NCBI GenBank assembly: GCA_977018835.1
Contig: OZ361261.1
Span: forward strand, 62,001 to 126,000
Origin: Minutocellus sp. GHC0000111
Lineage: Eukaryota
Direction of reading: 5' to 3'
Length of the DNA: 64,000 bases
Both the position numbers and the translations under genes were made by a program. Positions 1,922-61,991 of this stretch are shown here, piece after piece. A model generated the notes under the pieces. The model saw nothing but the letters and a program-made list of their open reading frames with translations, made no database searches and was not told the DNA's origin. How positions within the stretch are numbered: position 1 is the stretch's first letter; each line of letters opens with the position of its first letter.

Positions 1922-4003
1922 ATGGCGACCATGAGGAGAAGCGCCGCCGCCGCCGCTGCTGCCGCGACGGCAACTGCATCTTCCCCTGACCAAGCAGATG
2001 ATAAGGAAGACAATAAGCTCAGCAAACGCCCAAGGACATCCCTCATCGCTACCCTCCGAAGGCGACGGTGTGGTTGTTTGAACCAATGTTCGTTGTCTAC
2101 AATCGCACCGCATGCGGTTATTGCCGTGGCAACGGCGTTGGCGTATTCCCCGACGCTCCAAAATGGCTACGTATGGGACGATCGAATATTCCGAGACGCC
2201 AGGCAGGTGGCCACTTACGAGGGTTTGTACGATATCTGTGCCAAGCCAGGTACAATTGAGCGCGAGGCACACTACTGGCCCATGGTTTACACGAGCTTTT
2301 GGGTGGACTATCAACTATTCGGCAACAATCCGGTGGCCAGCCATGTCATCAATGTTGCGATTCACGTTGTCAATTCGTGTTTGATTCTAACGGTATTGAA
2401 ACGGATTGGGTTGAACGATAGAGCGGCAGGCTTGTCGGCCATGATCTTTGCTCTCCATCCGGTGCACGTTGAGAGTGTGGCGTGGGCTATTGAGCGAAAG
2501 GACACGTTGAGCACCCTTCTATATCTGATGGCACTGCTTTGGCACCCTTGTCTTTCGAATAACAAACGGTCAATGGGATTGTGGGTTTTATCTTTGATCT
2601 TCTATGCACTGGCGGTACTCACCAAATCCATTGCCGTATCACTACCGGCAGTTTTACTGCTGATACCGTGGTTCATGCGCGGTACAATCCGTCGGGATGA
2701 ATTTGTGCAGTCCATACCGTTCTTTGTCGTCGGGGCAAGCATTGCCATTTACGATATTGTGCAGATGGGCGCCAAAGGAAAAATGAATTTCGGCTACAGT
2801 TTTGTTCAACGCATAATGATTGCGTCCCGCGCAGTTTGCTTTTATCTATGGAAGATTGTCATGCCGACCAACCTCGCCATGATTTATCCCCTTTGGATAT
2901 TATCGGAGGAAAAAGTCACCTGGTACTTGTCGGTGGTATTTGTTGCTTTTTCGCTCATTGGTTTATTCCTCATGCGACATCGATGGGGACGAGGGCCCAT
3001 CTCAGGTCTACTCTTTTTTGGCATGACGGTTGGGCCGACTCTCGGTCTCATTGACTATTCCTACATGCTGTACTCCTTCGTCGCCGATAGATATCAGTAT
3101 CTGGCGATGCTTGGGCCAATTGCGGTCTTGTCATCAACCATTGTTTATGCTTGTGATAAATCAGAAGGAGGTAAACCGATCCTACCACTCGAAAGAAATT
3201 CTATCGATGAAAAAAAGAGCCAGAAGTTTGTGGGCATCACAATTCTGCTAGGAATATCTCTCTACTACAGCACATTTCGCCAGTGTTTTGCATATCGAGA
3301 CAACGAGAGCTTCTTTGGCCATTCTGTGCGCCAAAATAGTGACAAGGCAATGAATGCTTGGTTCCATCTGGCCGTGCATTACGCAGATTCCAGTGTCAAG
3401 AAGCCCGAGAAATCGGTGGCCTCCTACCGACGAGCATTGCAGATCATGAACGAGCGACGGGGAAGGGTTCCGACAATAATTTATGATCGGATTGCTCCCA
3501 TGATGTACAACAATGCGGGGAATACTCTGATACATGCCCTACAAAGCCCAGAGGCGGCAATAATGCTCCCCAAGGAAGCTGTCGAGCATCTTCCTAAGAA
3601 CGCCAAGGTCCACCAGCAATTGGCGGACGCCTTGAGCAAGGTCGATAAGAATGAGGAGGCAATAGAATACTTCACCAAAGCAACGCAACTATACCCATCT
3701 TCGTACGTGGCTTGGGGGAATTTGGGTAATAGTCTGGCAAGGCTTTTTCGCAAAGAAGAGGCAGAAGCTGCTCTGAAGAAGGCACTGGCAATCAAACCTG
3801 ACAAAATCAATTTTCGACATAGTCTGGCGACGGTCTACGCAATGATGGGCAAACATGGCAATGCAATCAAGGAGTACGATAACATACTTTTGTTCGACCC
3901 CAACAATGCAATGGCCAAGGAGCGAAAACAGACTGCGATAGAAACGATCGCTAGGCACCAGGCAAAGTTGCAGGCAAAACAGAAGTCGGAGATAAAGCAG
4001 TAG
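1922..4003 (+). CDS. TMTC-like GT-C glycosyltransferase (protein O-mannosyltransferase-like) with C-terminal TPR repeats
   Basis: 693-aa intronless ORF with a YVWDD luminal motif, HPVHVESVAW..ERKD, many TM helices, ADRYQY and then TPR-like repeats (AWGNLGNSL...EAEAALKKAL). Confidence 0.88.
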   Translation: MATMRRSAAAAAAAATATASSPDQADDKEDNKLSKRPRTSLIATLRRRRCGCLNQCSLSTIAPHAVIAVATALAYSPTLQNGYVWDDRIFRDARQVATYEGLYDICAKPGTIEREAHYWPMVYTSFWVDYQLFGNNPVASHVINVAIHVVNSCLILTVLKRIGLNDRAAGLSAMIFALHPVHVESVAWAIERKDTLSTLLYLMALLWHPCLSNNKRSMGLWVLSLIFYALAVLTKSIAVSLPAVLLLIPWFMRGTIRRDEFVQSIPFFVVGASIAIYDIVQMGAKGKMNFGYSFVQRIMIASRAVCFYLWKIVMPTNLAMIYPLWILSEEKVTWYLSVVFVAFSLIGLFLMRHRWGRGPISGLLFFGMTVGPTLGLIDYSYMLYSFVADRYQYLAMLGPIAVLSSTIVYACDKSEGGKPILPLERNSIDEKKSQKFVGITILLGISLYYSTFRQCFAYRDNESFFGHSVRQNSDKAMNAWFHLAVHYADSSVKKPEKSVASYRRALQIMNERRGRVPTIIYDRIAPMMYNNAGNTLIHALQSPEAAIMLPKEAVEHLPKNAKVHQQLADALSKVDKNEEAIEYFTKATQLYPSSYVAWGNLGNSLARLFRKEEAEAALKKALAIKPDKINFRHSLATVYAMMGKHGNAIKEYDNILLFDPNNAMAKERKQTAIETIARHQAKLQAKQKSEIKQ

Positions 4004-17644: not shown

Positions 17645-20098
17645 TTACCAGTCAAATCTCTCCACGGCAAGGTCACCAATGCCATATTTCTTCTTAATGT
17701 CCTTTAGCTCCTTCTCGATGCGCTTGCTTCCTCCGCAGTAAAATAGAGACCAATCGCGAAGAGGTGCACTTGGATCGTTGGATAGTTCCCGTACGTGCTC
17801 CACAGCAAAATAGCCGCCAAAGAGCTCGTCCACATATTCTCTTGCCTCGGTTGCTATAGAAGATCGATGTGAATGGTTGCTATTGTCCATTCCTTGGCCT
17901 TCGTTCGAAATCCGACGTCCCATGGACGAAACGGATGCCCCTCTCGTTAGGCCACGCTCTATCCTGTCGATCAGCTCAGTGTCTTTTGTATGTTGTGCCA
18001 TGGCCATGTCAAAAAAGGAATCAAGCTCAGCTTTGTCTATATAACCAGATCCATCCGTATCGACCTGTTCGAAGAGGCTCTTCATATCTTCAATAGTGTA
18101 GTCACCAATGCCACCCAACAGTGAGGATATGGTTGCATCCAGACCTTCCAAGCTAATCTCACCTGGGGGCATGTCGAGAATTGCCTCTGTTGGCATCTTC
18201 GCGGTTCTGCCCGAAACTACTGATCGACGTTTCCTGCTCACAGTCACACCGGTACGGCGTTGCTGCGTGCTAAAGGGTCTAATCGACGTAGCAGCGTTGT
18301 TCGGCTCCATCATTGGTCGAGCTGCCATGAGTTTGAGCTCCTCCGTCTTTTCAACACCATATTCGAAGAATTCTTCTCGGCTATAGGAGGAAAGAACACG
18401 AGCGAGGGCAACCTTGATTCTCTTATCGAACGATATGTCGGCGAGCTGCCGCTGATTCTCATCTGCAAATATTTACGTAGAATCGAGGATGAAGAATGTG
18501 AAGGTGAGATATGTCTAGGTCTAAGCATAGCAACAAATGAATGCAGCTTGTGACGTATACTTACACATCTCTTCCGGCATATCTTCGCCCTTTTCTATAA
18601 TAGAAATGATGCCGGCTATGGTGCTCTCAAGCTTTGGTCTGGTCCTAAATATGAAGAAGTTGGCAGGTAGTCGCCTCGGAATCACAAGGTCTCGAGTACC
18701 AGTATAGAAAATCAACAAGAAGGCATACTGACTGATGGCACTGAGATCCATCTTATGAAGGAAATACTCCACAAGACCTGCATCTCGACATGTCCAGATG
18801 ACGTTCACTCGTTTGATCTCCTTATATCGCTGCACCAAGCTCAAGGTCGGAGTAATGCCGATTCCAGAGGCTACAGCGACGCAATGCGTTGCATCTATAG
18901 CCACATCGGAGAATTCTGATTCGAACGGCCCGTAAAAGTAGGCAGTTCGTATCGACGGAGCATCGATTTCGGCGTGAAGCCGCTTGGTCCAATCCCCAGC
19001 ATTTCCGATGCACAGGGTTGAATGATTGGACTTGGTGGGGTGCGGAAATAATGTGAAGGCATGCCACTGGAATCTCGACAACCATGGAATCATTACATAA
19101 ACACATGCCGTCTTGCCAGAGCCATCGCCGGTGTCGAAGCCCTTGGGATTCTTGAACTCTACCACAACACCGCCCTCGCCATAACGCTCAAACAGGACGG
19201 TATCGCAAAGATGTGTCCGGAAGAAGAAACCAAAGACTCGATCAACAAAGTAGACCAGTGCAGGGATCCCAATCAGCAAGTAGATGCGGCTCGGAGCGTG
19301 ATACAGTAGAACTATCGCCCACAGCCACGAGAGGAAATGCAACCCTTTCCGCCACTCGAACGACATCTTCTCTCGCAGCCATGGCAGTACCATCGGCCAA
19401 ACGATCAGCGGTGTCATCAGGCAAGCAATAAGGCCAGATATGCCTGTGCTACTCTCCCAAAGTAACTGGATGTCATCTCCACGTAGCCCCCAACGCAAAA
19501 GATGGAAGAAGCTGTGGAACATGGTCTCAATGCCGACCACTATGCCGAACAAGCGATGGACGTGATGCATGTCGGCGAAGTCAACTACTTCTCGAATAGG
19601 CGTTCGTCGGAGGGCATCGTTGATGTTGTGAGCCTTGCTGAGGAACATCATCATGTACAGCGGGTAGTCGAAGAAGGCTGAGCATCTTGCCAAGGCTAGC
19701 AGAACCATGGAAATGATGGTGTCGGCGCATACTGTCTCACGAGGGCAGACACAGCTCTCCATGCCGTCTGCGCAACCGTCCGAGAATGGCTGCTCGGCGA
19801 CCTCGGCAGACGATTGTCGCATGCCGAACGGCGGTGGAAGAAGGATTTGGAGGAGACAAATGAGGAGGCTGATGCCCCCGAGGACAAACATGGCGTGGTA
19901 CCACTTGGCTTTGACTCTACATGTACATGATGACAGCTCCTGGCAATTCTTCCACTTTTCGGAGTAATTTTTTCCGCCTACTTCATCATTTTTCATCGTC
20001 GTCGCCGCCGCTTCTGTTGGTGCCGTGTAGCAAGTGCTATTGCTCGACGAAGGCGGGTCGGAACTTGAGGTTGTTGGTGCCAGAGTTCCGCTTATCAT
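17645..20098 (-). CDS. NADPH oxidase/ferric reductase family protein with an internal EF-hand; 2 exons
   Basis: Haem His-bearing TM helices (HRLFG...FH, LHFL...YH), FAD motif QWHAFT, NADPH motifs YGPF, VASGIGITP, IWTCRD, and C-terminal FYCGG...ERFDW. Intron 18463-18564 (GT-AG). EF-hand DTDGSGYIDKAE. Confidence 0.9.
19785..19915. repeat. 131-bp segment of the NOX gene duplicated in inverted orientation at 23342-23472
   Basis: The reverse complement of 19785-19915 is identical by eye to 23342-23472; both encode VKAKWYHAMFVLGG...EVAEQP. Confidence 0.95.
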
Positions 20099-20351
20099 TA
20101 GCGTCTTATTAGTCTTTGCCTTTCCTTGTCATGTGACTCAGACTGGTGGGGCGCGAAACGGTCGGAACGACATTGTGTGGTTCTCGAGGTTATCTGTCCG
20201 AATGCCGAGAAGCTCGGTGAGGTGCTTGAGTAACGGGGCGGTTCGTCAAATTTTCCTCTGGCTCTTGCTGACATGACTCGGCGAACTTTGACGTCACTTT
20301 TGCATGCGTCGTACGAGGCTCTCGTGAGTTTTTGAGGGTTTCCTTCATCTA

Positions 20352-22250
20352 CGCACGGCGGTGGCGCACGCACGTCGTTGCCTGCTCGATCGGCGCCTCA
20401 CCGCTCCGACCACTCGCCACTCGCCACACTGAGACTGAGCCGCCGCCCTCTGCGCCCACCCACCACACCGCCACTGCAGCTCTCGTGCGAGTGCCATGGT
20501 CCCACCATCTCTGTTTGTGCCCGTCGGCCTCATGTTTGTTGCTTCTCACAGCAGCACGTCTCCGGCTGCAGCCCTGTGCCAACGTGCATCGCGCAATTTC
20601 GCGTCATCGAGGAGCACGTCCGCATGTGCAGCCGCCACCATCTCGTCTCTGCCGCCCCTCCTGTCCAAGGATGGGTCGGCGTCCCCAGTGGACTCGGTTT
20701 CACTCCCCGACGCATTGGCACGACATGTGTTTTTTGTGAGGACAGACAACCAGAGTGGATGGGACGAAGTGGTGTCAAGACGCTGCCTTGCCGACAACGT
20801 TCAGCGAACCCCATGCAAAAAGAGCGTGTTTGTTCGCCTCGGCTCTGTCAATCCTCGTGCAGCCGACGCTCTCCACGACGTGATGGATGGATGGCTTTCG
20901 ACATGGTCACGGTCGAGCAACAACTTCGCCTCGAAGTGCCGCCGCCGCGGCTCAATTTGACGAAGGCATGTGGTGCACTCCTCAAGTCGGTCGCACCACA
21001 TGTGTCGGTGGGACATGCGGCGATGGACTGCGAAATCAACAGGCAGATGTTGCTCGAGGCCCAGAAGTTCCCTGGTGGGTGCAATGGCCAGGACGATGGG
21101 TGGGACAACGACGACGACGTTGGGACGTTGGGCACCCTGACCACGACGGAGGCCGGCGAGATCAGTGAGGACGACGACGACGAAGACGAGGACCATGTGC
21201 CCTGTCATGAGGACGAAGCTGACATTGCAAGAGAGGACGCTGCACACATGAAGCACACATGCAGCAGTGCTTTGAGAAGAGTCGTCAGAAGCACGGTGAT
21301 GGCGAGCCAGAGATGGGAGCTGTCGATGATGCCGAGGATGACGACGCCCCTCACTTCCACTTCCTGAAAAAGGCCGGCATTGAGGCGGCCGACTCAGGTA
21401 AAATGAGGGCAGTGCTGGCAGAATGCTGGAGAGCTTCATCCATTAACATTTCTGATGGCAACAACAAGAAGAAACCAAGGACAACAGAGTTCATCCACCA
21501 CAGCATCTCCACCAAAGGAACTCTCCTAGAGCACAATCGCGAGGAAGATGGCATGACGGATGACGACATCAAAGAGCTCTGCAAAGCTTGCTCTAACTTG
21601 CTCCACACTCTTGACGCAATGTGTTCCAGGTTTCTGAAATGGTGCATGAAATGGGATGATGAGGCAAAGAAGGCTGTGAGAGAGCTTGAAGCATTGATTG
21701 CAAGTGCCCTCAAGCAAGCACGGGCAATCGGCATCAGCATGACGCCCAAGTGGCACTTGCTCGAAGATCACATCTTGGACCAACACATTTGGCTAGTGAA
21801 GAGTGGATGGGGCGGCGTCTGTTGGCTCAACGAGTCGTTTGCAGAGCGAGCCCACCAAGAGGGCGTTAAGGAAGATCGTCGGACTCAGGGCGTCAAGGGA
21901 CATGAGGCCCAACAGACGGCGCAGTTCAAGGCTGAGGAGAGGGCATCCAATCCAAAGGTCGAGGAGAGGCGGGAGCGAAGCTCTCGGGTGGCAAGAACAA
22001 GGAAAAGGACAAGGACCGAAGCTGTTAAAGCAGAAACTGATGACAAGCGCCAACAAATGATCATGATGGCCACCGATGGAGATGAGGATGTAGAGATGGG
22101 AGCAGGGCATGTATAAAATTAGAAAATGAAATTGCACTGCTGCTGCACAATGACAAATGAATTGCACAATCATCCAACTTTTACAAACAGCATCGCGATT
22201 GAGCAAAAAAGCAAACAGCACACCCAAACAAACACATCACGTCCTTCTTA
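20352..22250 (+). mobile_element. Degenerate DNA-transposon remnant with a Chapaev/Transib (CMC)-like transposase C-terminus; TpA-depleted
   Basis: ORF 21259..22116 contains TPKWHLLEDH...GG...NESFAERAHQ, resembling the H-x-x-x-x-H...E-x-x-E-R-x-H-Q end of Chapaev/Transib transposases. Element ends are not resolved. Confidence 0.55.
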
Positions 22251-23341
22251 ACTCACCCATTTATCTCCCAGACCAAAAAGTCCCTTTGTCGGGTTGATTG
22301 TTGCATAAACTTATCCCAATGCTATCTGTCTCTCCTCGGGCGCAAAATCATTGTCGGAGCTCCGGGAGGTCGAGTGGGGGGATGCCAGTCTTCGTGTTTC
22401 TTCTTCTTCAAACCCAAGATGCCCGCAGTGTACATGACGGCGCCGTACATGATGGGACTGCATCCCAACAAATTCATCAAGGAGTCGTTGTTGCCGATGA
22501 AATTGTAGTAATGAAGTTCCTTTCTGCGAAGACGGACGAGCAGTTCAGCCAGGGCGTCCTGCACCGCAACTCTGTCTGCGGTGTTGACCGCGGGATTGCG
22601 GCCGTTATTTTTTTGCTCATGGAGAACTATGGATCGAGACCAACGGGAACATCACCAGGATGTCGGGAGCACCTGGTTGGTCTCGTGCCGTAATTCTCCC
22701 ACACCAGCGCGAGATGTCGCGCCTTCGTTCTGCACGCAGCGGCGGCAATTTGATTTTTTGCCGCCATGGTGGCTCGCGTTGGGCGCGCCGGTCGGTTGCT
22801 TCGCGCGCCGGCCGGCCACCGAAAGTGCGACCAAAAGTATGCGAGTCATCCGGCTGGCAGATGGTGCTGTGCCGACTGCACCGCCGGCGCCGTCCGTCTG
22901 TCCAGCATGTACACTCCTCATTGACTAAAACAGTTTGTATTTTAAAATCAGGAGAGTGAGCAAGACGGCAAGCACAAAAAGGGACAAAATGGGGCTGATG
23001 GTGATCCGAAGGAGCTGCTGCACCAAACTGCCACGACGGCACGTCACGGCCACCTGACTCATCATCAGAGAATATCCACGCGCCATACAGTAACAGCCCG
23101 CCAGGAAGTCACACGTGACATGGCCACATTTGCTCACTGTGCGTGCGCAATTGTTACTTAATTAAGAGGAAATCCTCTACAATTTCATTGTGCCCTCAGA
23201 GTGCGCAAGCAATTCGGCATCGAGCAAAATCAAGGGGAGACTCGTGACTTGACTCCATACACGATGTGTCAACACAAAGTAACTTATTCGCCTGAAAAGA
23301 GCAATAAGCAGGTCCGAATGAAGCCACGCAGAGCATGTAGC

Positions 23342-23472
23342 GTCAAAGCCAAGTGGTACCACGCCATGTTTGTCCTCGGGGGCATCAGCCTCCTCATTTG
23401 TCTCCTCCAAATCCTTCTTCCACCGCCGTTCGGCATGCGACAATCGTCTGCCGAGGTCGCCGAGCAGCCATT
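23342..23472 (+). pseudogene. Inverted duplicate fragment of the NOX gene
   Basis: Identical to the reverse complement of 19785-19915; homology stops abruptly after EQP. Confidence 0.85.
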
Positions 23473-26400
23473 GTGTTCTTGTTGCCGGTACTGCCACGCT
23501 GTTGTGGCCAGCAGAAAGGGCTGAAAGAAATGTGATTCATTCTTGCAGCTTACATGTAGCTATCAGCAAGGCATGACCATCTCAATCACGGACATCAGCC
23601 TCCTCCATCGCAATCACGGATGTCGGCCGAATGGAAGGGGCATATTTTTGTGATGCGTTTTGATCAAAAGAGCCTCTAGCTAGCTAGAGCTAGTCTTGCT
23701 TTCTCTGCCATGTGACATCTTGCTTTCCGGCATATCATATGCCCTTGGCTACTCTGAACGTCGAAGCAAGACGTCACTCGACATCTTGCTTTCGAATGAC
23801 GAAAGGTTCGCAGCAGAAAAAAGGTTCGCACTGCAGCAACCGCCATAAGAGTTCCCGCCAACATCTATGCCCCAGTCTTGCTTCGACATTCCCTGGAGCA
23901 TTTCAGCATTTCTCACCGCAGAAAGCCATCATAAGAATTGCCGCCAACATCTGTGCCCCGGTCTTGCTTCAACATTCCCTTCAGCATTTCTCGATGCATG
24001 CCGCGCCTCTAATTGAAGCCATTTTGGCCCTCACAAGCAAGCTTCGGCATCATTCACGGTTCACCCGTGACTGTGATACTCTGGTAGGCCTAGATACATG
24101 CCCCTAAACGTAGTAAGTACCCTATAGGCAACACTGAGTGTTGCCAGGCTCACCGTGACGCACGCCATGGCTGTTGCTCACCATGTCCTTATCGCAAGCC
24201 TAGCTTCTGCTCTAAAATAGATGAAAATATTTTCATGTCTGGATGTTTTTGCAATATTGGCCGGCTCGCAAGGCGAAAGCTGGCAACAACCAAAATTCTT
24301 TAGCATGCTTGGGACCTGTTTCATGCAACACAGGAAACAGCGGGACAGAGAGCTAAGGAGCATTGATTGTTGCGAAGTGTAAGCAAGCGAGCTGGGCCCA
24401 TCAGTTGAGTCCGTTCCAAACCGCAAGATACCGGCTTCAACGGTTCTTCCGTCTTTTCGATCCGTCTTTTTTCACGAACACGAGAGATACGAGAGATAAA
24501 AGCACCAATGGCTTGCTTGTTCTCCCGCGACTACAAGCGGCCGAGGCAGCCAAGGAGGCCGCTATAATAGCAACCAGCAATACTAGTAGCGCAGGATGTG
24601 GCGGCAGCGACAGTTCTGGATCGCCATCTCGTCGCCCCGCCGCGATCGATCGGCCTGTCCAAACTGCGCGTGGAGTTTGTGCTCGCTCATCACCATCTCG
24701 GAGCAGCCAATCTTGCCCGTGTCGACAGCACCAACCAAGCCAGCAGATTGGATCAATAGGCACATGGCTGTGACCGCCGTATTTTGTTTGCGTAAGCCCT
24801 CCGAGATCTCCGCTGAATTCCTGTCGTAGCAGAATCGCGAGAGCTATTTCTCTCGCAGATCGTCAGTCTCCTTCCCCACGAAAAAAATTCCACGATTCTT
24901 CCAACCTTTGGCATGGGTTATCTCGACAGCCAGAGCTCGGATCGCTAGGCCCGGCACTCCGACGTGACCGCCATCATCAAACTATGCAGTCAGTAGCTTG
25001 GAACTGCTGAATTCCATCGTAAGCTTGAATGGCAGCACATTCTCTTCCAAATCAATACGAAGTTCCACGAAACTGAAACACTGCCGGCATCCGACCTTTC
25101 TACCAGCTCTCTGGTATCCCACAGAGACCAAACACCCTGCCCTCCACCGCAACTGAACCCCTACATATATCACACATCTAATTTGGTCGGTAGAAGCGAA
25201 ATATGCATATTGCATCGGCCGTATTCTTTTGGCATGCATGTTTTGAGGATTCGGTCCCTGCTGCAATCAATTGTTCCCAATCTTTGACGGCCCGAAAGAC
25301 AACCAAGAAATGATCTGTTGATGTTGCTACCACCTCCGTTGCACTCGAAATCATTTGAACTTATATGAGCTTACTTTTCATTGTCATCGGGCACTTCTTG
25401 AAGATAATATACGCATTACTCCTTGACCTCAACGATTTCCCAGGCCCAATTTGTGTCATCACCCCAACTTCAAGATATTTTGACAGCCCGGGGACATCCA
25501 ACAATAGAGCATGCTATTCAATAACACCAATATAACTATATCTGATTATACTATAGATGTACCTCTACTCTTGTATCTTTGTGCTGCTTTAGTAATACAA
25601 TGCATGTGCGTGTCCTTTTGCTCCATTTTCAGATTTGGTTAAAAAATTGAATTGTTTGCCATTTTAGAACAACTATCTAGAGTGATCCCAAAGAAGGCTA
25701 TAAATGACAAGCTACATACCTCTTATATATAGTATTAGTGGGAGGTTGCAATGGCTGGGAGCAGGGGGTTGGCATCAAGATATGTTTATATTTTGTGCCG
25801 AAGATGGGTGGTGGGACTTGCTGTTTCAGACTTCACAGATTTTTTTAAGGTCTTTTGATGTGCCTACCAATGACCTTTTTCTGTTTGTTGCCAGGGGTAG
25901 GCTATTTCCTACGAGGTCGCGGACAGCAGTTTCAGGGACCCGGTTTTCGGGTCTTCGGGCAAAATCTCATAAAATTCAGCACAAACGCACGCAGCAAGCA
26001 GCATTTATTTGCTATCGTCCTGTCTTCAAGATGGCGGTGACGGCAGTGCCGACGGCATCCGCTTCACGCAAGCAAGGGATAAGCGTGGTGTCTCCAGAAC
26101 GGGTTGGTCCTTGACCTTGGACCGACTCGGAGATGTCGATTTCATCTTCCCATGCCAGCGTCTGGCCGATTCACCCCCCCCCCCATCCATCGCCCCTCTC
26201 CCGACTTCTGCCAGTTTTTCCGATGACAACCGGTCACCTCCTCCACCTCCCGACCCCACCACCACCTCCCAAATGCATTGATTCAAGTAGCCACATGGTT
26301 TGAGCTCCGATGTCGGTCTCCATGGTCCCCACAATGGCGGCGTGTCTTGTGCGCGGTCCGGGTGACCCCGCGCCAAAATCGAGCGGGCCAAAAAAATCAT

Positions 26401-27123
26401 CACCCGCCCGGCGCGCCCGCCACTCAATGAAACCTTCCTCATTTCCAACCCACCCGACACACAAACTGTTGCTCTGCTGCCACAAAACACTGCATGTCCA
26501 ACACCATGTTAATGCAAATGGCTGTTGCCACTGCTGCCACCGCAGCTGATGCGCCAGCATGTCGCCGCTCCCGTCGGTCCGGCAGCTCCATCCCATGCTT
26601 TGATTGTTTTGTCCATCGGAGCGGCACCATCGATGCCTCTACGATTCGTGGCAAAAGTCTCCTGGGATGATCCAGACCACAGCGAACCGGGCATGGGCGG
26701 GCCTCTCACTTCATTCAGAAACAGCAGGATGTCATGGAGCAAGCCCGAGAGGAGGAGCTGTGCTGTCCGAGCCAGACCGGTCCTGATCCGGCACAAGATG
26801 TGCCGATTTCTCAAATTCAAATTGCTCGGCACAATTCGTCATCCAACAACGCCGATGCCAGCCCTGAGCCGACGGTCGAGGACAATGCTGGTGGTGTCGC
26901 TGCTCGTCCTGGTGATGATGATGTCGAAGCTGGGGGCATCGCCGAGTCCATGGTGGTGGATGGAAGCGGCAACAGTGAAGAATCTGGCAATCCTGCCAGT
27001 GTCGGTGTTTCTGCTACCGGCACCGTGGATCGACCGAGGAGAATTTGGATGTGCTGCTGGTTGAGGCCGAAGCGCAACACAAAGCTGCAGAGGAGGCTTT
27101 GAAAGGGGGCTAAGGGACACACC

Positions 27124-28202
27124 TTGAAACGAGAAAAGCGGAAGGATGAAAAGGCCATGGCCGATGCCGAGAAGAAAAGGAACAAAAAGAAGGATGAGAA
27201 CGGCAATTTACCGAATGGAAAGAAGCGAGTTCTCCTCGTGCATTGCGATGAGAAATGGTTCTGGGGTCTCGTCCTCCGAGCTTTTGCGAAGGCTTGCGAG
27301 GGGAAATCGGCGTGAAAAAGCGAGATTACGCGGCCTTTCACAGGAGCCACATCAACAAGGTCATGGCCATTGCATTTGTTGCCGCAGTCTTTGACGGCTC
27401 TCTTGAGAGTGGGTGCGAGGTTGTAAAACTGCCACTGGCACACGAGCTCAAGCTCCTAAAATAGCGGAGCGAGCTCAGTGCGAAGCAGCATCACAGCCTG
27501 ATGGTTCAACACGGTGCCCAAACACCAACCCCGATGGGACACCAAAGGAACCTCTTCGCCGGAAAGGAGAGTCGTTTCTTGTTGATTGTTGCGTTGCTGG
27601 ATCGAACGAAGGCAGGCACCAAAAAGGATCCGAAATGCTCTTTGCTCCTCGTGTTCAAGGAGACCATTTTCCCAGCGATTCTCAACCTTGTCGGTCCGGG
27701 CAAGCAACACGAAGATTGCCATGTTATTATCCAGGGCGACCAGGCCGGGCCTCACGAGGACGGAACCTTCACGCAATTTGTTACTAACTTCTGTGCTGAG
27801 GAAGGCTGGACGTGGCAGCCACAGGCACCGCAGATGCCTCACGCCAACGTCCTTGACTTGAGCGTGTTCCCCGCGATGAGCCGGCGGCACTCGGAATGGG
27901 CACGAAAAATGGCAGGCACCTCCGTCATTTCCACCGACCAGATCTGGGACACTGCCGAGGACGTTTACGACAGCATGCCTAACTGCAAAATTGCTTCGGC
28001 CTTCATTCAGCACTGGAGGACAATGGGCCTGGTGATTAAGGCCGGTGGTAGCAATGAGTTTGTTGGAAGGTTGGGTGACGAAAACTTGCACACTGGAATT
28101 ATGATCGACTTCAACGAAACGGCCAAGGGGATGGAGCCCTCAGCTCGTCATCCTTCTAATAAACAGATAGTGTTAATGTCTTTACACATGTGTATTAAAT
28201 AA
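27124..28202 (+). pseudogene. Mariner transposase catalytic domain (element B), frameshifted
   Basis: DEKWF, HRSHINKVM, LVDCCV, GDQAGPH and NVLDLS are spread over three frames; 38 residues separate the second and third Asp. Confidence 0.88.
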
Positions 28203-28263
28203 ATGTTACACGTCTACAAACCACTTATAGATCTACATGTAAGATGCAGCAGCATTGGTTTGT

Positions 28264-29347
28264 TTATGTCACGGTGGGCTTCTTTGTTCTTCTATTTCTA
28301 CCGGTGTTCTTTTTTGCCTCCTTGGCCTTCTTGTGATCATTAGAAAGCCACACAGCGCGGAGGGACTGACGAATCTTTCCGCGCTTCACACCATATGCAT
28401 CGGCAAGTTTATTGTCAGTGAGGGCAGGGTGAGCAGTTGGTTGTTTACTCCCATCCTCACATCCCAACTTATATGCATCTAATGCAATCTTGTCAGTAGA
28501 TAATGCAATAGAGAATTCTATTGTCTTGTTATCATGCAATCCGAGTTCTCTGCTTCTCCACCCTTTCGGGTAGGCACCACGACCCTCTCTTACTTGGCGA
28601 TCGACTTCGATCATGCCTAGCACTGTGGTGACCGCGACCTCGCTGCCCCAACCAGGAACTTGTTTGAAGGGGAGGTAGACCCCTTTCTCTTTTCTTCTTG
28701 GTTCGGGCCTCTGACTACATGTGGGTGACTTGTAGTTCTTTATATCTTGTGGTAGTGGTGCTTCTCCGTGCGTCAAAAAGCACGCAAGCCTCCGATGTTC
28801 CTCAACCTCTCGTTCAATCTGTCGTTCGGTTGGTTCGGTTGGAGGCAAGGGCTCCAAGATGGCAGGGGATGACAATTGAAGGTTGCTGAACGACGGGCAT
28901 GAGCGGCTTGGGGTAAGAGCACACTGAGCATGAACTGACATTGGACTTGTTACCATGGGCGTCGGCGGTTGCCATGCTCATCTCTGAGAATGAATCATCT
29001 TCATCAGAATGAGATGAAACGGTAGCGGCACCGCGAAAGTCGGCACGCAATGTGTCATGATGCAAGTGCTTCCTTGCTTGGGCTTGTTCGGCGGCGAAGC
29101 CATCCTCTTCGTTGCACTCGCGTCGATGTTTCAACACACGAGGAGATGTGAGGTCTGACGATGCCGGTGGGACCCCTTGGTTGTCCTCCTCGTCATCGTT
29201 GTCCTTGTTCTCTCGATGCCGCGGATGTTCCGGCGTTTCGTTGGAAGTTTCCTTCTCATGGCGCGAGGGGCTGAATGCAGTCGCCTCGGCGCGTTTCGGT
29301 GGACGCGGTGGACTGAAGATGTGTCCCTTTGGAGCATCCATGAGCAT
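28264..29347 (-). CDS. Second ORF of element B: disordered N-terminus plus HTH-like domain homologous to the transposase N-terminal region
   Basis: KGWRSRELGL...KLADAYGVKR aligns by eye with RGWRADSMGL...NLAHAYGVER in the transposase at 29548..30792. Two overlapping ORFs indicate a frameshift or intron. Confidence 0.6.
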
Positions 29348-29569
29348 GGAAGCTTCTTGAAGCGCCAGTCGGCAGAAGTTGCCCAGTCTATTTGTGGTAA
29401 TTGCTTGGAGGTCGGTTGTTGACGGATGTGTTTTGATTTGCTTGCCGCGTGTTTTTCAAGGTGCGCGCAAACCGCCGTGTCGGAAAGTCCAAAGACCCCA
29501 AAAAACCGGGTCCCCGAAATTGCTGTCCCGGACCTCGTAGCTAGGGCCTACGTAGCTACTACGTAGCTT

Positions 29570-32049
29570 CCGACGTACCCATGGAACCACTTTTCATCGT
29601 AATGCACAAGAATAGTAGGCTCGGCTTCTCTCCCCCAGCCATTGAGGAAATGCTTCGCAAATCGGACATGCTCGGCCATCTGAGCTGTTGTAAGCAAAGG
29701 CAATGTTGCTTCTGCACCGCCGCATGTAGCTCCACAATGCGAAGTAGTAAACCACCGATCAATCGTCCTTGCACTGCACCAACCGTCAATGTCATCTGCA
29801 ACATCCTGCCAACTTTTGGACTGATCCTTGAGAAGCATTGCAACAATCTCATCTCGAATTCCAGGCTGTCTAGCGATGTCCGACCGAGAAAGAAAGTTGA
29901 ATGGCTCTTTGTTGTCGTCGGCGGTAAGGCATTGGAACTCTTCGCGCGCCATCTTCCTTATGTCTCCCTGCGCAGATGAATCCAAGAGGTAGCAATTCTC
30001 AGCGGCCTCCGCCGATGCCTTCTGTAGCAAATGCTCTCCATAAAAATATGCTGGAGTGTGCATCGAGCGCGCATGATCATAGTCTTCGATCACAGAAAGA
30101 AATTTGACCCTCTTCGCTCCGGGCTCCTCCCCTCTTTCCTTTCTCTTTCGCTTCTTGCTTTCCTTCTTCGCCTCTGCTCTTCGCTCGGCCTTCTGTGGCA
30201 TCATGAGGCAATCGTACGCATCTTTGGGGTGGTGCCGCTCAACTCCATATGCGTGGGCGAGATTCACTATTGCGAGGGGATCTTTCGTCGCTGGAAGGGT
30301 TGCCATTCCAAGGGTCTTGCGCATGGCAGCAGCAGATGCCACAGCACCATAGTCCACAGCAATTGCAGTGTCAAAATCAGGGTCGTCCCTTGATAGGCCC
30401 ATGCTATCAGCTCTCCATCCTCTGCAAAGATTCATTCCACCATTCTTTTTCATGAGCTCAGTTACAATCTGACCTCCGTCTTTCCGGCACTGCCGTTTCG
30501 CCGGCGGACTAGAGGCCGTTCCCCCATCGTCTTTGTCATCTCCTAATGCATCTTGGCGAGTCCTTTTGATAGCTGCACGAGCTGGGGGGTTGTGGATGAT
30601 TGGAGCAGAAGATGTGGCTGATCGAATTCGAGTGAGGCGGAAAAGGGGAACATCATGCTCAAATTTCTGGGCTGCGATGGCGTCATGCTGCACATCCACC
30701 GTCAGCTTCCCACCGGAGCCTTTCACATCGGTAACGATTCCATCACCGCCGGGAGAATTCTTGTATGGGCTGTAGTCTGATGAAACCCTCACGGTATCGC
30801 CTTTTTGGAGAGGAGGGGTTTGCCCGACACATAGTTGCTCGTCTTCTTCCCCTTCGGCGGCGTAGTGATGGAAGTGACGGCACCTCTTTGTTTTGCATGC
30901 TCCTTCCTTTCATATTCAAGGCATGTGCGCTTATTCTCGCGCTCTTTCTCCGCCGCGAACTGCGCCTTCTTGGCCCCGCCTTCTTCGCAATGTCTTCGGC
31001 TGCCTTCGCTTTCTCGGCATCCAATTGTTGGGATCGCTGCACTTGCGCCGGTGCTGGCGACGACGATGGATGAGAGGACGTATCAGTCGATGTACCAGTC
31101 GGCAGAGAAGGCGGAGAACGAGCAGGAGACACAATGGCCGGGCGAGTCGATGGCGTTCGAGTCACGTTCGACGAGGGTGAGGTATTGGCATTATTTGATT
31201 GCGATGCGGCCCGTGCAGACGTTGTTGGACGGCGGGATGAACGAGCGTTGTTGGAGGCTGCTGGCGACCGAAAATACGTAGGAGGCCATGGGAGGAGATC
31301 ACCCCTGGATAAATGCATGTCTGCAAGGTTTTTGTCGCTGAGATTGGTCGTGTTGTTTATATCGGCCACGAAGCATTTGTGGCAGCGCAAGTTTGCGTTC
31401 TCTTTGCCGATCTTTGGAAGTGCTGCACTTGACAGCAGTGGTGGAACGATGCGCCACATTTTGTGCACCGATCATTGGCGGGAGGGCCGGCCGAGCCAGG
31501 GATAGCCAACGCGCAAGCGCCAATTTGAGAATAACTGCAGGAGTTTGGCATAAATGGGAGGAGGGGCAAGCGGTATCGTTTCGTTCTCGTTCTTTATGCT
31601 TGGATGGTCGGACGATGATTGGCTGATGAACATCGAAAATCTTCAGAGCCGTATAAAAGTTTTACTGTGTCAGAGAGACTTGGGCGGGAATGTGTCGATT
31701 TGGAGGGCGATCCCGACGCCGCCGGATTCGCAAGGAGCGCGATCGATGAAGAAGGCGGCGAACATCACACGTTGCTCAACATATCTTGAACTAATCGATG
31801 AGGGAAAGTCCGATCGGTTGGACAACATTTCGTGATAAACGACCATGCAAAGCAACGACCTTTCGCCATGAAGAGAGAGGCAAACGAGACGGGCAAGCAA
31901 AAAAACGGTCAAAGACGCCCAAAATGTGCTAAATTAAGTGTAGTGGAGAGCCGGCCATGCCAGTAAAAGACATTTTCCCGCTCTCTCTTGTCACTCCTGT
32001 TTTTTCGCGAAAATTTCTCGCTGGCGTCGCCAGATCGACACGCACTTGG
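29570..32049 (-). mobile_element. Tc1/mariner element C, truncated just after the first catalytic Asp
   Basis: Transposase from ATG 31551 (finger, linker, RQPGIRDEIV...WCSARTIDRW...LVHYDEKWF) stops at about 29570 next to element B. Likely terminus TA|CCAAGTGCG at 32049, with a nearby gcgagaaat motif shared with the element A TIR. Confidence 0.72.
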
Positions 32050-32269
32050 TAGTACTCTGCTAGATACATGCCCCTAGCTACATGTACGAGGTCAGATTCG
32101 CGAGAAATCGAGCGCCCGGTTTTTGACTGCTTTCGAGGGGATTGAAAAGCGCCTCGAAGAATAGTCATGCTGAAATATTTAAGAAAATGGCTATTTTTAC
32201 TCTAATTTTGATTTATCTTCTCATGTGAAACAATAATTCGGATAAGATTTTAGATTTCAGCGGCTCTAA

Positions 32270-32790
32270 TCAAATGGACGCGTTCGTGCGACGCGACGGT
32301 TCGGCCTCCATCTCGTCTTCATCTTGAACGATGGCATGATACTCGCCTCGGATCGGCAGTACGATGCATTCGTCCCGGATCTCGCACCACAGCCAATCCG
32401 GGATGAGCTTGAGCTTCTTTAGCTCCCGCTTCACGCCGTTGAACTTGTAGATGAAGGTAACTGAGGAGTGGAACATCTCGCGGCCTTGTCGTACACCGAT
32501 TCAGTTATTGCCACGACATCATCCATGTCGAGGGGCATGTTCTCGGCCCTTATCGCCCGGCAGACGAGTCGACTGACGACATTGAGGAGCATGTGCTTCT
32601 CAAAATCCTCGGGCCCGTCAATCTTGAGAGTTTTCTCCTGGTCAATGATGATGGCCAAGACAGCGGTGAGCATGTGTTCAATCCATTTGTGTCTCGGGCG
32701 GAAGTCGAAGCTGAGCATTTCGATGACGCGATCGGCATACTTGGACCGGTACGCTGCTTCCCAACGAGTGCCGATGATTCATCTGATTCG
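32270..32790 (-). pseudogene. Passenger/accessory ORF fragment inside element A, unknown function
   Basis: Protein-like frame IIGTRWEAAYRSKYADRVIEMLSFDF...VYDKAA / MFHSSVTFIYKFNGVKRELKKL...NASI* with G/C-ending codon bias and one frameshift near 32478. Confidence 0.5.
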
Positions 32791-32794
32791 GCCG

Positions 32795-34196
32795 CCTTCC
32801 GTTCTGTCATCGACGATCTTGCAACGGCGACCCGGCGGCATGCTGCACCATGTCTCTTTGCAATTGCCAAGTGCAGGGAGCAGGCAAAGGTGGACTGTTC
32901 GGTGCTGTCCAGCGCAGAGCATGGTGCACGATTTTCGGGATGGATGAAGGCGTATGGTGCTCTACCTGCATCTGAGAAGGCGATGTGGGAGATGAAGAGG
33001 AGATCTCATCTGGCTATGCAGCCATACATTCGAGATGTTATTGTTGATGCTCTGATACGAAATCCTCGGGAATCTTGGCGGGAGCTGGAGGTTGATGTCA
33101 ACTTTTGGTGTTCCTACTCGGCAATACGGCGGTGGATAATGTCGCGGGAAGGGTTCCGGTACTATGCCGAAAGGATCATCCCTCTCCTTACTACCCATCA
33201 GATGGAGAAACATATTTGGTATTTGCGCGGAAATTCCGAAACAATTGGGGGCTCGGCGGTGGCAAGTTTCTCCTTATTATGTTGGATGAGAAGTGGTTTT
33301 GGGGCTTGGTTCTTCGATCGCATGCCAAGCAAGTTGCAGAATTGGGTATTGATCCTCGGTCCTTCTCGGCATATCACCGAAATCACATCAACAAGTGCAT
33401 GGTGGTGGCTGTCACTGCCTTGGCTTTTATTGACAGCATTGAGAATGGCGGCATTGCGTTCAAGCTTGGACTTTTTCGGGCTCAGGAGCATGAAATTGCG
33501 AGGCAGATGGCAAGGGAGGCGGTGCGGCAGGCAGATGGTAGAATCAAATATTGCGGCCCGGTGGTTCGGAAGAAAGACGATCTGTGCCTTGTGGATTGCG
33601 CGGTGACTGGATGCAGCCATGGCACCCTTGATAATCCCAAGTTCCCACTGAAAGCTTTATTTGAGAACAAGATGTTTCCGGATGTTGAGGCTTTGGTCGG
33701 ACCTGGTGGAAAGTTTGAAGGCTATGTCCCTATTTTTCAGGGTGACAATGCTGGGCCCCATGCCGAGACTGCTGAATTTGTGGAATATGTGGAAGGATAC
33801 TGTCGGGACAAGGGATGGCGTTGGGAACCTCAGGCCCCGCAAATGCCCCATATGAATGTTCTTGATCTGTCTGTTTTCCCTTGCATGTCAAAGCGGCATA
33901 CAATGTTGAGCCGTGATCGGGAGGGGCTGAAGGTTTTGACAGAAGATCAGACTTGGGATGCAGCGGAGGAAGTTTGGATGGGGCTGGAAAACTGGAAGAT
34001 CGCATCGGCATACATCCAGGCTCATAGAATTGCAAAGAAGGTAATCGTTGCAAAAGGCAACAATGATTTTCTTGGAAACGGTGAAGGCATTCATGTTGGG
34101 GTGCGAAAGGATTTCAGGCCGACTGAAAATGGCATGGTTCGGATAGATGGGAAAATTATCGCTCCTCCTCCTGCTGATCCAACCATGGATAATTAG
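32795..34196 (+). pseudogene. Mariner transposase of element A, 5'-deleted, 2-bp frameshift near 33213
   Basis: FRSVIDD...QPYIRDVIV...LDEKWF...QGDNAGPH...PQAPQMPHMNVLDLSVFP. Confidence 0.9.
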
Positions 34197-34611
34197 TCCT
34201 GCGGTGCTTTTAAGTTATGTTATGTTTAAAATAATACTAGATTATTTAGATTCGAGCTATATTTGTGCTACTACACACACATGCCGTACATGCATGTGTA
34301 GTGCTCTCTTGTCAGTTTTGATGGTTCCGGCTTTAAATGCATGTGTCCGTGTCCGGGTTGCGGGCCCAAAAATCGACATTTTTTGGTCCCGGCCCTGCGC
34401 TCGATTTCTCGCGAAACGGACTTCGTAGTTGTGTTACCATGTAGCAGCAGCAGCGCTGTAGCAGCAGCAGCGCGGCGGCGTCCAGCCGCGCGGGAAGGCA
34501 TATCTTTACATTTCCCTCATTCCCCCAACCTGCTTTCATTTCAGCTACATGTAAAAGCACGCCTTCAGCTTCTCGAACCCGAGCAGATTTTGAATTGTAG
34601 AAACGACAAAG

Positions 34612-60009: not shown

Positions 60010-60613
60010 GCTTGGGTGCGTTGTTTGCGCTTTGGAGGTTTAGGCGATATTTGATTTTGTTGCGACCAAGGAATTCAATGTGTAAATTGCCAATGCGGAG
60101 CTTGGCACGTAAGTCTGTCTCAAGTGCCTGCTCCTTCCGCTTTTTTTTTCTTCTTTCGGTGCCTCCCTTTCTATCTCTCTACCTTCGATCGAGGGTGGAG
60201 ACTCCACAAAGGTGATCAGCCGAAAGAGCCCAAGGCCAGAAGTACCCGTCGAATCCGTTCGACTGTTTGGTTTGACTGACTTTTTGATGAAAACGGACCG
60301 ATTCTTGCACGATCGATCGGCTCGATCTGCGGTTTGTTCCTCGCTCGCCTTCGACTGTTTCGCTTCCCGCCAAACGTTTCGTCGCTACTTTTATTTATTT
60401 ATTTTTCCTTGGGCTAGCTACTAGCTGCTTTTTCGGTTCGGCCAAAGAAAGTCAACACGAGATACTACGTAGTATGTGCCGCTTTTTGTTCTCTCGGGTA
60501 GATACAGTAGATACGCCCTCTATTCTGCTCCGTTGGGCACGGACGATACACACATGTATGTATGTACAATACGGAGCAGTTCTGCCTTCTCTTGTTGCCG
60601 CTTCACATACGTA

Positions 60614-61991
60614 CGAAGTCCGTTTCGCGAGAAATCGAGCGCAGGGTCGGGACCAAAACAGCGACTTTTTGGGCCCGCAACCGCCTGAATCTTAGATCTA
60701 CCGGCATTGAATACATGTACAATGCAAAGTACATGTATTGCAGCAGCTAGTATCCAGATCTACAATCCAATCTAGTATTATTAAACACAATATAACTTAA
60801 ATGCACCGCAGGACTAATTATCCATGGTTGGATCAGCAGGAGGAGGAGCGATAATTTTCCCATCTATCCGAACCATGCCATTTTCAGTCGGCCTGAAATC
60901 CTTTCGCACCCCAACATGAATGCCTTCACCGTTTCCAAGAAAATCATTGTTGCCTTTTGCAACGATTACCTTCTTTGCAATTCTATGAGCCTGGATGTAT
61001 GCCGATGCGATCTTCCAGTTTTCCAGCCCCATCCAAACTTCCTCCGCTGCATCCCAAGTCTGATCCTCTGTCAAAACCTTCAGCCCCTCCCGATCGCGGC
61101 ACACAACATTGTATGCTGCTTTGACATGCAAGGGAAAACAGACAGATCAAGAACATTCATATGGGGCATTTGCGGGGCCTGAGGTTCCCAACGCCATCCC
61201 TTGTCCCGACAGTATCCTTCCACATATTCCACAAATTCAGTCTCGGCATGGGGCCCAGCATTGTCGCCCTGGAAAATAGGGACATAGCCTTCAAACTTTC
61301 CGCCAGGTCCGACCAAAGCCTCAACATCCGGAAATATCTTGTTCTCAAACAAAGCTTTCAGTGGGAACTTGGGATTATCAAGGGTGCCATGGCTGCATCC
61401 AGTCACCGCGCAATCCACAAGGTATAGATCGTCTTTCTTCCGAACCACCGGGCCGCAATGTTTGATTCTACCATCTGCCTGCCGCACCGCCTCCCTTACC
61501 ATCTGCCTCGCAATTTTATGCGCCTGAGCCCGAAAAAGTCCAAGCTTGAACGCAATGCCGCCATTCTCAATGCTGTCAATAAAATCCAAGGCAGTGACAG
61601 CCACCACCATGCACTTGTTGATGTGATTCTGGTGATATGCCGAGAAGGACCGAGGATCAATACCCAATTCTGCAACTTGCTTGGCATACGATCGAAGAAC
61701 CAAGCCCCAAAACCACTTCTCATCGAACATAAAAAGGAGAAACTTGCCACCGCCGAGCCCCCAATTGTTTCGGAATTTCCGCGCAAATGCCAAATGTTTC
61801 TCCATCTGATGTGTAGTAAGGAGAGGGATGATCCTTTCGGCATAGTACCGGAACCCTTCCCGCGACATTATCCACCGCCGTATTGCCGAGTAGGAACACC
61901 AAAAGTTGACATCCACCTCCAGCTCCCGCCAAGATTCCCGAGGATTTCGTATCAGAGCATCAACAATAACATCTCGAATGTATGGCTGCAT
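60614..61991 (-). mobile_element. Second copy of mariner element A, inverted and lacking its 5' ~930 bp
   Basis: TA at 60612-13, then TIR cgaagtccgtttcgcgagaaatcgagcgc. The transposase is nearly identical to 33016-34196, with a 2-bp frameshift near 61103; identity ends abruptly at 61991. Confidence 0.93.

What the first reader, a model, noticed from the sequence alone, without database searches (positions are those of the whole stretch)
20352..21398. Repeat-specific erasure of TpA: a candidate RIP-like hypermutation system (TA to CA/TG)
Seen: scanning by eye I find no TA dinucleotide between 20352 and 21398 (1047 bp). The 329-aa ORF 20378..21367 and the 285-aa transposase-like ORF 21259..22116 contain no Tyr, with Cys or His where Tyr would fit (KACSNLL, DAMCSRF, KGHEAQ). 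Element B shows the same pattern (no TA in 26642-27014; VHCDEKWF versus VHYDEKWF in element C), whereas neighbouring host genes keep TAC/TAT codons and intergenic DNA is TA-rich. Established: fungal RIP and 5mC deamination give C to T, the opposite direction; A to G at TA/WA motifs is the signature of polymerase eta or of adenine deamination. Inference: a repeat-targeted mutator converts TpA to CpA/TpG, which would inactivate transposases and also destroy mariner TA target sites. I know of no description of this, but a literature check is needed.
Basis: partly seen in the sequence, partly recalled or inferred. Interest (0 to 1): 0.92.

Follow-up and report, generated by a model that had tools for sequence, protein, structure and literature searches.

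The report
TpA hypermutation of algal DNA transposons
Transposon copies in this alga (likely a diatom) have each independently lost TA dinucleotides to TG or CA while neighbouring host DNA keeps them, which matches a mutation process so far described only in one unrelated alga and likely reflects a host DNA-editing defence whose enzyme is still unknown.

Summary
Observation confirmed: no TA in 20352-21398 (39 expected). Most of the run lies in a high-copy transposon (element A, 20721-22871). Across 131 protein copies the variable sites are three-state Tyr/Cys/His or Ile/Met/Thr, almost never Arg. So TA is ancestral and goes to TG or CA on either strand (304 vs 374), which excludes RIP and CpG decay. 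T[A>G] is 20% against 0.3% for the reverse change and 0.1% for transversions. The loss is context-graded (RTAY fast, YTAR nearly spared). It is absent from host non-coding DNA (RTAY o/e 0.94, against 0.04 in A and 0 in B). Hits are independent per copy and not strand-clustered. Five Tc1-like clusters of the same assembly show it too. It is not undescribed: a 2026 preprint measured TpA to TpG/CpA hypermutation of integrated viral DNA in Bigelowiella natans and proposed an adenine deaminase. New here are a likely diatom host, multi-copy DNA transposons as target, and polarity from copies. Mariner TA target sites are intact (5 of 5). This scan noted the same pattern on other diatom DNA (unchecked notes). 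The enzyme is inferred, not shown.

The parts
20352..21398 (.). TA-free run of 1047 bp
   Evidence: 39.5 expected
20129..20720 (.). low-copy flank, also TA-poor; origin unresolved (old repeat or edge of the affected domain)
   Evidence: depth 52-150 in X1; 4 of 4 shown strain differences (20306, 20476, 20493, 20503) have TA where the window has TG/CA
20721..22385 (+). element A, main segment: C-terminal part of a probable DDE transposase, broken by two 2-bp insertions and heavily TA-mutated
   Evidence: depth 37,000-121,000 against about 120 in flanks; 131 protein copies map; RTAY 1 of 23 expected; RAG1-like Atlas neighbours at 0.89-0.91, weak
22386..22871 (-). element A, second segment; in other copies joined to the start of the main segment, so this copy is inverted or rearranged
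   Evidence: loose ends at 22386 and 22871; P0004 fuses the two frames
25910..29539 (+). element B: Tc1/mariner-like, 39-nt inverted ends, intact TA duplications; RTAY 0 of 28 in 25892-28150 and 0 of 9 in 28801-29539, with a TA-richer insert at 28151-28800
29548..30909 (-). element D: Tc1-like transposase frame, partly affected (RTAY o/e 0.47)
32085..34427 (+). element C copy 1: Tc1-like, 36-nt inverted ends, TA duplications intact, lightly affected
60612..61991 (-). element C copy 2 (partial); 9 of 24 core substitutions against copy 1 are TA vs TG/CA

Best explanation
After insertion, transposon copies in this genome accumulate A:T to G:C transitions at TpA on both strands, one site at a time, likely through a host adenine deaminase (predicted to be of the TadA/ADAT type) acting on DNA that the cell has likely marked as foreign or silenced. 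Shown: polarity TA to TG/CA, transitions only, both strands, confinement to mobile DNA in this window, flank dependence (RTAY fast, YTAR nearly spared), independent hits per copy, unequal load between copies. Inferred: A is deaminated to inosine and fixed as G at replication; once either A of the TA palindrome is hit the motif is gone, so CG is not reached; targeting follows chromatin state or RNA guides; the result is missense decay of transposases. No enzyme was identified. Odds: about 0.93 that the confined process is real, about 0.5 that a deaminase is the agent.
For: Three-state sites: 13 element-A sites carry both Cys and His, 11 of them also Tyr and 1 also Arg in a single copy. At 12 Tyr sites only 2 of 669 calls are not Y, C or H. 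Rates with the root chosen without preference for TA: T[A>G]N 420/2093 (20%), T[G>A]N 17/5392 (0.3%), G[A>G]N 13/10466 (0.1%), transversions 129/120600 (0.1%); element C 24/607 (4.0%) against 4/1272 (0.3%). 27 of 33 high-frequency variable codons fit a TA site, 8 of them through an inferred silent neighbour. DNA level: in contigs of 4 runs from 2 studies, 12 of the 22 shown differences inside element A have TA in the other copies and 1 has TA in the window. The C1/C2 pair differs at 11.8% of bases in TA steps against 1.4% elsewhere, P=7e-6. RTAY o/e is 0.85 in host coding and 0.94 in host non-coding DNA, 0.04 in A and 0.00 in B, while YTAR is similar everywhere. 304 TG vs 374 CA; no strand coordination within copies (1041 of 2125 pairs, 1056 +/- 21 expected); load overdispersed (117 vs 51 +/- 10). 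25 haplotypes in 26 copies. Five Tc1-like clusters of the same assembly: 41 of 67 Tyr columns vary to Cys or His, and 0 of 11 Cys+His columns contain Arg (one reference protein is internally duplicated, so that cluster counts twice in part). The same signature was measured de novo in B. natans, where an ADAT2 candidate is proposed.
Against: No enzyme, chromatin or rate data; no genome is held. A weaker A[A>G]T class exists (39/1267, 3%), which also fits a WA-motif polymerase. Host genes are not wholly free of the change: 12-13 of 100 amino-acid variants among orthologs of three genes are T-context transitions, and one host Tyr in ATAT context varies to both Cys and His; 3 of 75 host Tyr columns vary to Cys or His, but selection lowers that count. 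The low-copy flank is affected too. 80 metagenome loci with related Tc1-like elements show no TA loss or TA-biased differences, and three C. closterium copies show none (0 of 12 Tyr columns, only 4 differences). Most spectra rest on predicted proteins, which hide silent changes and favour open frames.
Confidence: 0.5

Rival explanations
1. Error-prone repair synthesis (polymerase eta or iota type) is recruited to silenced or methylated repeats and inserts G opposite template T at WA motifs.
For: Hierarchy TA > AA > GA, with independent AAT to AGT hits at 5 of 9 AAT Asn codons. WA is the recalled polymerase eta motif. Diatom transposons are CG-methylated by DNMT5 (PMC9998398, passages only).
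Against: TA exceeds AA about 20-fold (20% vs 0.9%); there are almost no transversions at Tyr sites (2 of 669 calls other than Y/C/H); no strand-coordinated clusters at any distance. Patch synthesis is recalled to give transversions and clusters.
Confidence: 0.17
2. A base modification written at TpA in silenced DNA (methylated adenine or oxidised thymine) miscodes or decays, a mirror image of 5mCpG decay, with no dedicated mutator.
For: A palindromic, strand-symmetric, terminal two-product pattern with slow single hits is what CpG decay looks like.
Against: No modification data. I recall no eukaryotic TpA-specific writer. In B. natans the process was on in only 11 of 15 lines, which fits a switched activity better.
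Confidence: 0.2
3. The TpA bias is genome-wide, and selection or biased gene conversion hides it in host DNA.
For: One three-state Tyr site in a host gene; affected low-copy flank.
Against: 15.7 kb of host non-coding DNA keeps RTAY at 242 of 257 expected. Host ortholog variants are spread over all classes, 39 of 100 being transversions. A 139-bp duplicate of a host exon keeps its 2 TA sites (too few to weigh much).
Confidence: 0.05
4. RIP-like CA to TA change, CpG deamination, RNA editing before reverse transcription, or a sequencing artefact.
For: CpG decay is present as a minor class (5 of 24 in the C pair); one M/T site (20936) can be rooted on ACG or ATA.
Against: RIP gives two states per site, not Y/C/H. 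CpG decay needs Arg as the third state (1 of 13 sites, single copy). Both strands are hit within one copy and these are DNA transposons. Independent short-read contigs show the same differences, and one from another sample matches the window over 20112-20750 with a single difference.
Confidence: 0.03

Closest known systems
TpA hypermutation of integrated NCLDV and virophage DNA in Bigelowiella natans (Mettrop et al., bioRxiv 10.64898/2026.01.13.699255, April 2026)
   Same: A to G and T to C transitions on TpA giving TpG/CpA, both strands, confined to foreign DNA; DDE endonuclease and reverse-transcriptase domains are enriched among its TpA-poor genes; enzyme unknown, ADAT2 proposed.
   Different: There: a rhizarian, a single-copy viral region, de novo rates. 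Here: a likely diatom, multi-copy DNA transposons, polarity from copies, a flank rule and a minor AAT class. The words diatom, stramenopile, context, flanking, trinucleotide and polymerase do not occur in its main text; its supplements were closed.
Repeat-induced point mutation (RIP) of ascomycetes
   Same: Dense transitions confined to repeats, dinucleotide-specific, degrading transposons (search listings and abstracts).
   Different: RIP is C to T, mostly CpA to TpA, and creates TA and stops; this removes TA. Dependence on homology and the sexual cycle was not tested.
5mCpG deamination in methylated repeats
   Same: A palindromic dinucleotide decays to TpG/CpA on either strand.
   Different: The source here is TpA; CpG o/e stays at 0.80-0.86 in A and B.
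Polymerase eta WA mutagenesis; ADAR and TadA-derived adenine editing (recalled)
   Same: A to G favoured after T.
   Different: ADAR acts on RNA and is strand-specific; a 3' G is disfavoured here; no clusters or transversions.

Membership tests
B. natans-type TpA hypermutation | changes are almost only A>G / T>C transitions | tested here: met
   T[A>G] 20% vs transversions 0.11%; 2 of 669 other residues at Tyr sites
B. natans-type TpA hypermutation | restricted to TpA | tested here: met
   TA 20% vs AA 0.9% and GA 0.1%; a minor AAT class (3%) departs from 'exclusively'; the CA class (3%) is largely cross-codon sites with an inferred T
B. natans-type TpA hypermutation | both strands, giving TpG and CpA | tested here: met
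   304 TG, 374 CA at 17 sites
B. natans-type TpA hypermutation | confined to foreign or mobile DNA | tested here: met
   RTAY o/e 0.94 in host non-coding vs 0.04 and 0.00; one 64-kb window only; the flank 20129-20720 is unresolved
B. natans-type TpA hypermutation | about 1000-fold rate per generation, active in a subset of lines | not testable with these tools
   only relative loads; overdispersion between copies
B. natans-type TpA hypermutation | same enzyme (ADAT2-like candidate) | not testable with these tools
   no genome held; unproven in B. natans too
Fungal RIP | C:G to T:A polarity, TpA gain | tested here: not met
   opposite polarity; T[G>A]N 0.3%
Fungal RIP | triggered by sequence homology in the sexual cycle, RID-dependent | not testable with these tools
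   the low-copy flank is also hit; a 139-bp host duplicate keeps 2 of 2 TA
5mCpG decay | CG is the root state | tested here: not met
   Arg at 1 of 13 Cys+His sites in A and 0 of 11 in five other clusters
Polymerase eta patch mutagenesis | strand-coordinated clusters with transversions at WA (recalled) | tested here: not met
   many small patches over a long time could blur clusters
Transib/RAG1-like transposase (element A) | RNase H DDE core | tested here: inconclusive
   Atlas neighbours RAG1-like at 0.89-0.91 with low recognition; no Pfam hit, no PDB hit; model pLDDT 38

The most novel reading that the evidence does not exclude
Diatoms and chlorarachniophytes share a SAR-wide genome defence in which a natural DNA adenine editor, steered by silencing marks rather than by homology, rewrites R-T-A-Y (and weakly R-A-A-T) in transposons and integrated viruses: an A-to-G counterpart of RIP and APOBEC, and a natural double-stranded-DNA adenine base editor.
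Probability: 0.35. Interest if true: 0.9.

Novelty: new member of a known kind. Interest (0 to 1): 0.66.

Why it matters
It extends a process known from one preprint and one rhizarian alga to a likely diatom and to ordinary DNA transposons, so it may be a widespread eukaryotic defence with the opposite polarity to RIP. The flank rule gives a fingerprint for testing candidate enzymes, and diatoms are genetically tractable. In practice it raises GC in repeats, removes stops (long false ORFs rich in Cys and His that get annotated as genes) and would distort transposon dating.

Tried and rejected
No whole genome was available, so there was no genome-wide scan and no search for deaminases or polymerases. 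A DNA-level strain-SNP control on host genes was not obtained; that control rests on composition and on proteins of four genes. Of 10 host ORFs looked up by exact sequence, 4 were in the collection and 3 had other members. Breadth: 80 metagenome loci with related Tc1-like elements show ordinary TA content (o/e 0.40-0.94) and no TA-biased differences. The search patterns favour intact copies and short-read assemblies collapse copies, so this is weak. Three C. closterium copies and two other outside clusters show no Y to C/H; a fourth outside cluster has 4 of 31 Tyr columns among 174 variants. Host tandem repeats show no TA excess (few sites). Strand-coordination test: negative. Loss of TA target sites: not seen. 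Classification of element A by Pfam, PDB and folding failed; no fold search was run on the low-confidence model. A window-relative spectrum was replaced by a rooted one, because changes private to the window copy inflated it. Literature: nine searches answered for this pattern plus one on deaminases; only the B. natans preprint describes it, and 'TpA hypermutation diatom' gave 0 papers. Subscription journals are not searched.

Full report
Observation. The window has TA at 20350 and then none until 21399, a 1047-bp run; the next-longest gap is 396 bp. Composition predicts 39.5 TA. At the rate of six GC-rich host genes 22 are expected, P about 2e-10. The gap in element B (26640-27015) is also real.

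Anatomy. Contigs of four public runs from two studies show depth of 37,000-121,000 over about 20750-22840, against about 120 on either side (X1). Summed depth is not a copy number, but 131 distinct protein copies map to the stretch, so element A (20721-22871) is a high-copy repeat. I take these proteins to come from the window's assembly because they are ENA-only, lie on long contigs, and share contig lengths with the window's own proteins; this is an inference. The window copy carries two 2-bp insertions and is rearranged at 22386. Element A may be Transib/RAG1-like, but that is only a lead. The first 369 bp of the run are low-copy flank. Elements B, C and D are Tc1/mariner-like; B and C have inverted ends and TA duplications. 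The host is likely a diatom: the only named relatives of element C are from Cylindrotheca closterium (57-58%), and the top Atlas cluster for a host gene is commonest in Bacillariophyta, on four records. That is modest evidence.

Polarity. At variable sites the copies show Tyr, Cys and His together, or Ile, Met and Thr. Thirteen sites have both Cys (TGY) and His (CAY); 11 also have Tyr (TAY), and one has Arg (CGY) in a single copy. RIP-type CA to TA gives two states per site and CpG decay needs CG as the third state, so TA is the root. With the root chosen by parsimony and no preference for TA, T[A>G]N is 420 of 2093 (20%), the reverse T[G>A]N 17 of 5392, G[A>G]N 13 of 10466 and transversions 129 of 120600. 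The less affected element C gives 24 of 607 against 4 of 1272. Of 436 codons, 33 have a second residue in at least 10% of copies: 19 are TA sites seen within the codon, 8 are cross-codon sites whose T is inferred, 4 are AA-context and 2 are ambiguous. One cross-codon T (21447) is confirmed in contigs. At DNA level 12 of the 22 shown differences inside A have TA in the other copies and one has TA in the window; 40 further rows were not shown. The two C copies in the window differ at 24 of 1185 columns, 9 TA-type and 5 CG-type, P=7e-6 for the TA excess. Five Tc1-like clusters of the same assembly (15 members each, of 22-146) show Tyr to Cys/His at 41 of 67 Tyr columns and no Arg at 11 Cys+His columns.

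Specificity and context. RTAY observed/expected is 0.85 in 33 kb of host coding DNA and 0.94 in 15.7 kb of host non-coding DNA. It is 1 of 23 in A, 0 of 28 in B, 0.47 in D and 0.74 in C; YTAR is 0.35 and 0.22 in A and B against 0.22-0.38 in host DNA. This is the reverse of ordinary TA avoidance. Among copies, ten RTAY sites are 87% converted (462 of 531) and seven mixed sites 47% (216 of 463); six YTAR sites show 3 of 416 on the one visible strand. These sites were chosen as variable or as retained, so the unbiased figure is the o/e. A weak second class, AAT to AGT, hits 5 of 9 AAT Asn codons independently. Against strict confinement: 12-13 of 100 host ortholog variants are T-context transitions, one host Tyr varies to both Cys and His, and 4 of 4 shown strain differences in the low-copy flank are TA losses in the window.

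Dynamics. The two strands are hit about equally (304 TG, 374 CA). Hits within a copy are not strand-coordinated at any distance (1041 of 2125 pairs; 1056 +/- 21 by permutation), and load per copy runs from 25% to 100% and is overdispersed (117 vs 51 +/- 10; 51 copies). Twenty-six copies give 25 haplotypes over 13 sites. So the changes arose after insertion, as single events over time, on DNA. A contig from another sample spans the flank and the element junction with one difference in 639 bp, and that difference is TA against the window's TG; one event only, but it suggests the process is recent.

Mechanism. The best reading is enzymatic A-to-inosine deamination at TpA in DNA marked as foreign or silent (about 0.5). 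A miscoding base modification at TpA (0.2) and polymerase eta/iota repair synthesis (0.17) remain open. Purity of transitions and lack of clusters count against the polymerase; the AAT class counts slightly for it. The properties of these enzymes are recalled, not tested. The change cannot create TAA or TAG, so damage is missense. TA target duplications are intact at 5 of 5 ends, so the target-erasure idea has no support here.

Prior art. Mettrop et al. (bioRxiv 10.64898/2026.01.13.699255; parts 1-4 of 5 read; supplements closed and may bear on flank context) report 231 of 302 de novo mutations in two integrated viral regions of Bigelowiella natans, almost all TpA to TpG/CpA, at about 6e-7 per site per generation, in 11 of 15 lines, with transposon domains enriched in TpA-poor genes and an ADAT2 candidate. 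Diatoms and flank context are not mentioned in its main text. PMC9998398 (passages only) covers DNMT5 methylation of diatom transposons and has no mention of TpA or deamination. Other papers were seen only as listings and abstract starts. No paper on this in diatoms was found. The scan's own unchecked notes report the same pattern, and the RTAY/YTAR rule, in other diatom-like genomes. I had the polarity before and the flank rule, and I do not count those notes as support.

Breadth. 80 metagenome loci with related elements and three C. closterium copies do not show the signature. Both tests are weak, so the distribution may be patchy or masked.

Verdict. Interest 0.66; new member of a known kind.

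Noticed in passing
window 20720-22878: In X1 and X3 a single-haplotype-depth contig of 2872 bp has about 2.5 kb of other sequence in place of element A, so the locus is structurally heterozygous.
   Followed up: no
window 23334-23472: Inverted 139-bp, 99% identical duplicate of an exon of the ferric-reductase/NOX-like gene (19785-19923), on the far side of element A.
   Followed up: partly
window 20754-21949: The minor AAT to AGT class hits codons preceded by G or T (or an inferred T) and spares four preceded by C, hinting at a role for the -2 base; few sites.
   Followed up: partly
window 28151-28800: TA-richer insert with an ORF that keeps Tyr inside the otherwise RTAY-free element B; possibly a younger nested insertion.
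   Followed up: no
window 34200-34360 vs 60650-60800: The two element-C copies are 98% alike in the core but have largely different AT-rich subterminal segments between core and terminal repeat.
   Followed up: no
window 1922-4003: TPR-containing membrane protein whose relatives beyond two close hits and a few marine-eukaryote transcripts are mostly unnamed, with the named ones bacterial; possible horizontal origin.
   Followed up: no
window 19733-19841: A paralog of the NOX-like gene (17 differences in 172 bp) exists in all four runs; only 1 of 9 shown differences is TA-type.
   Followed up: partly
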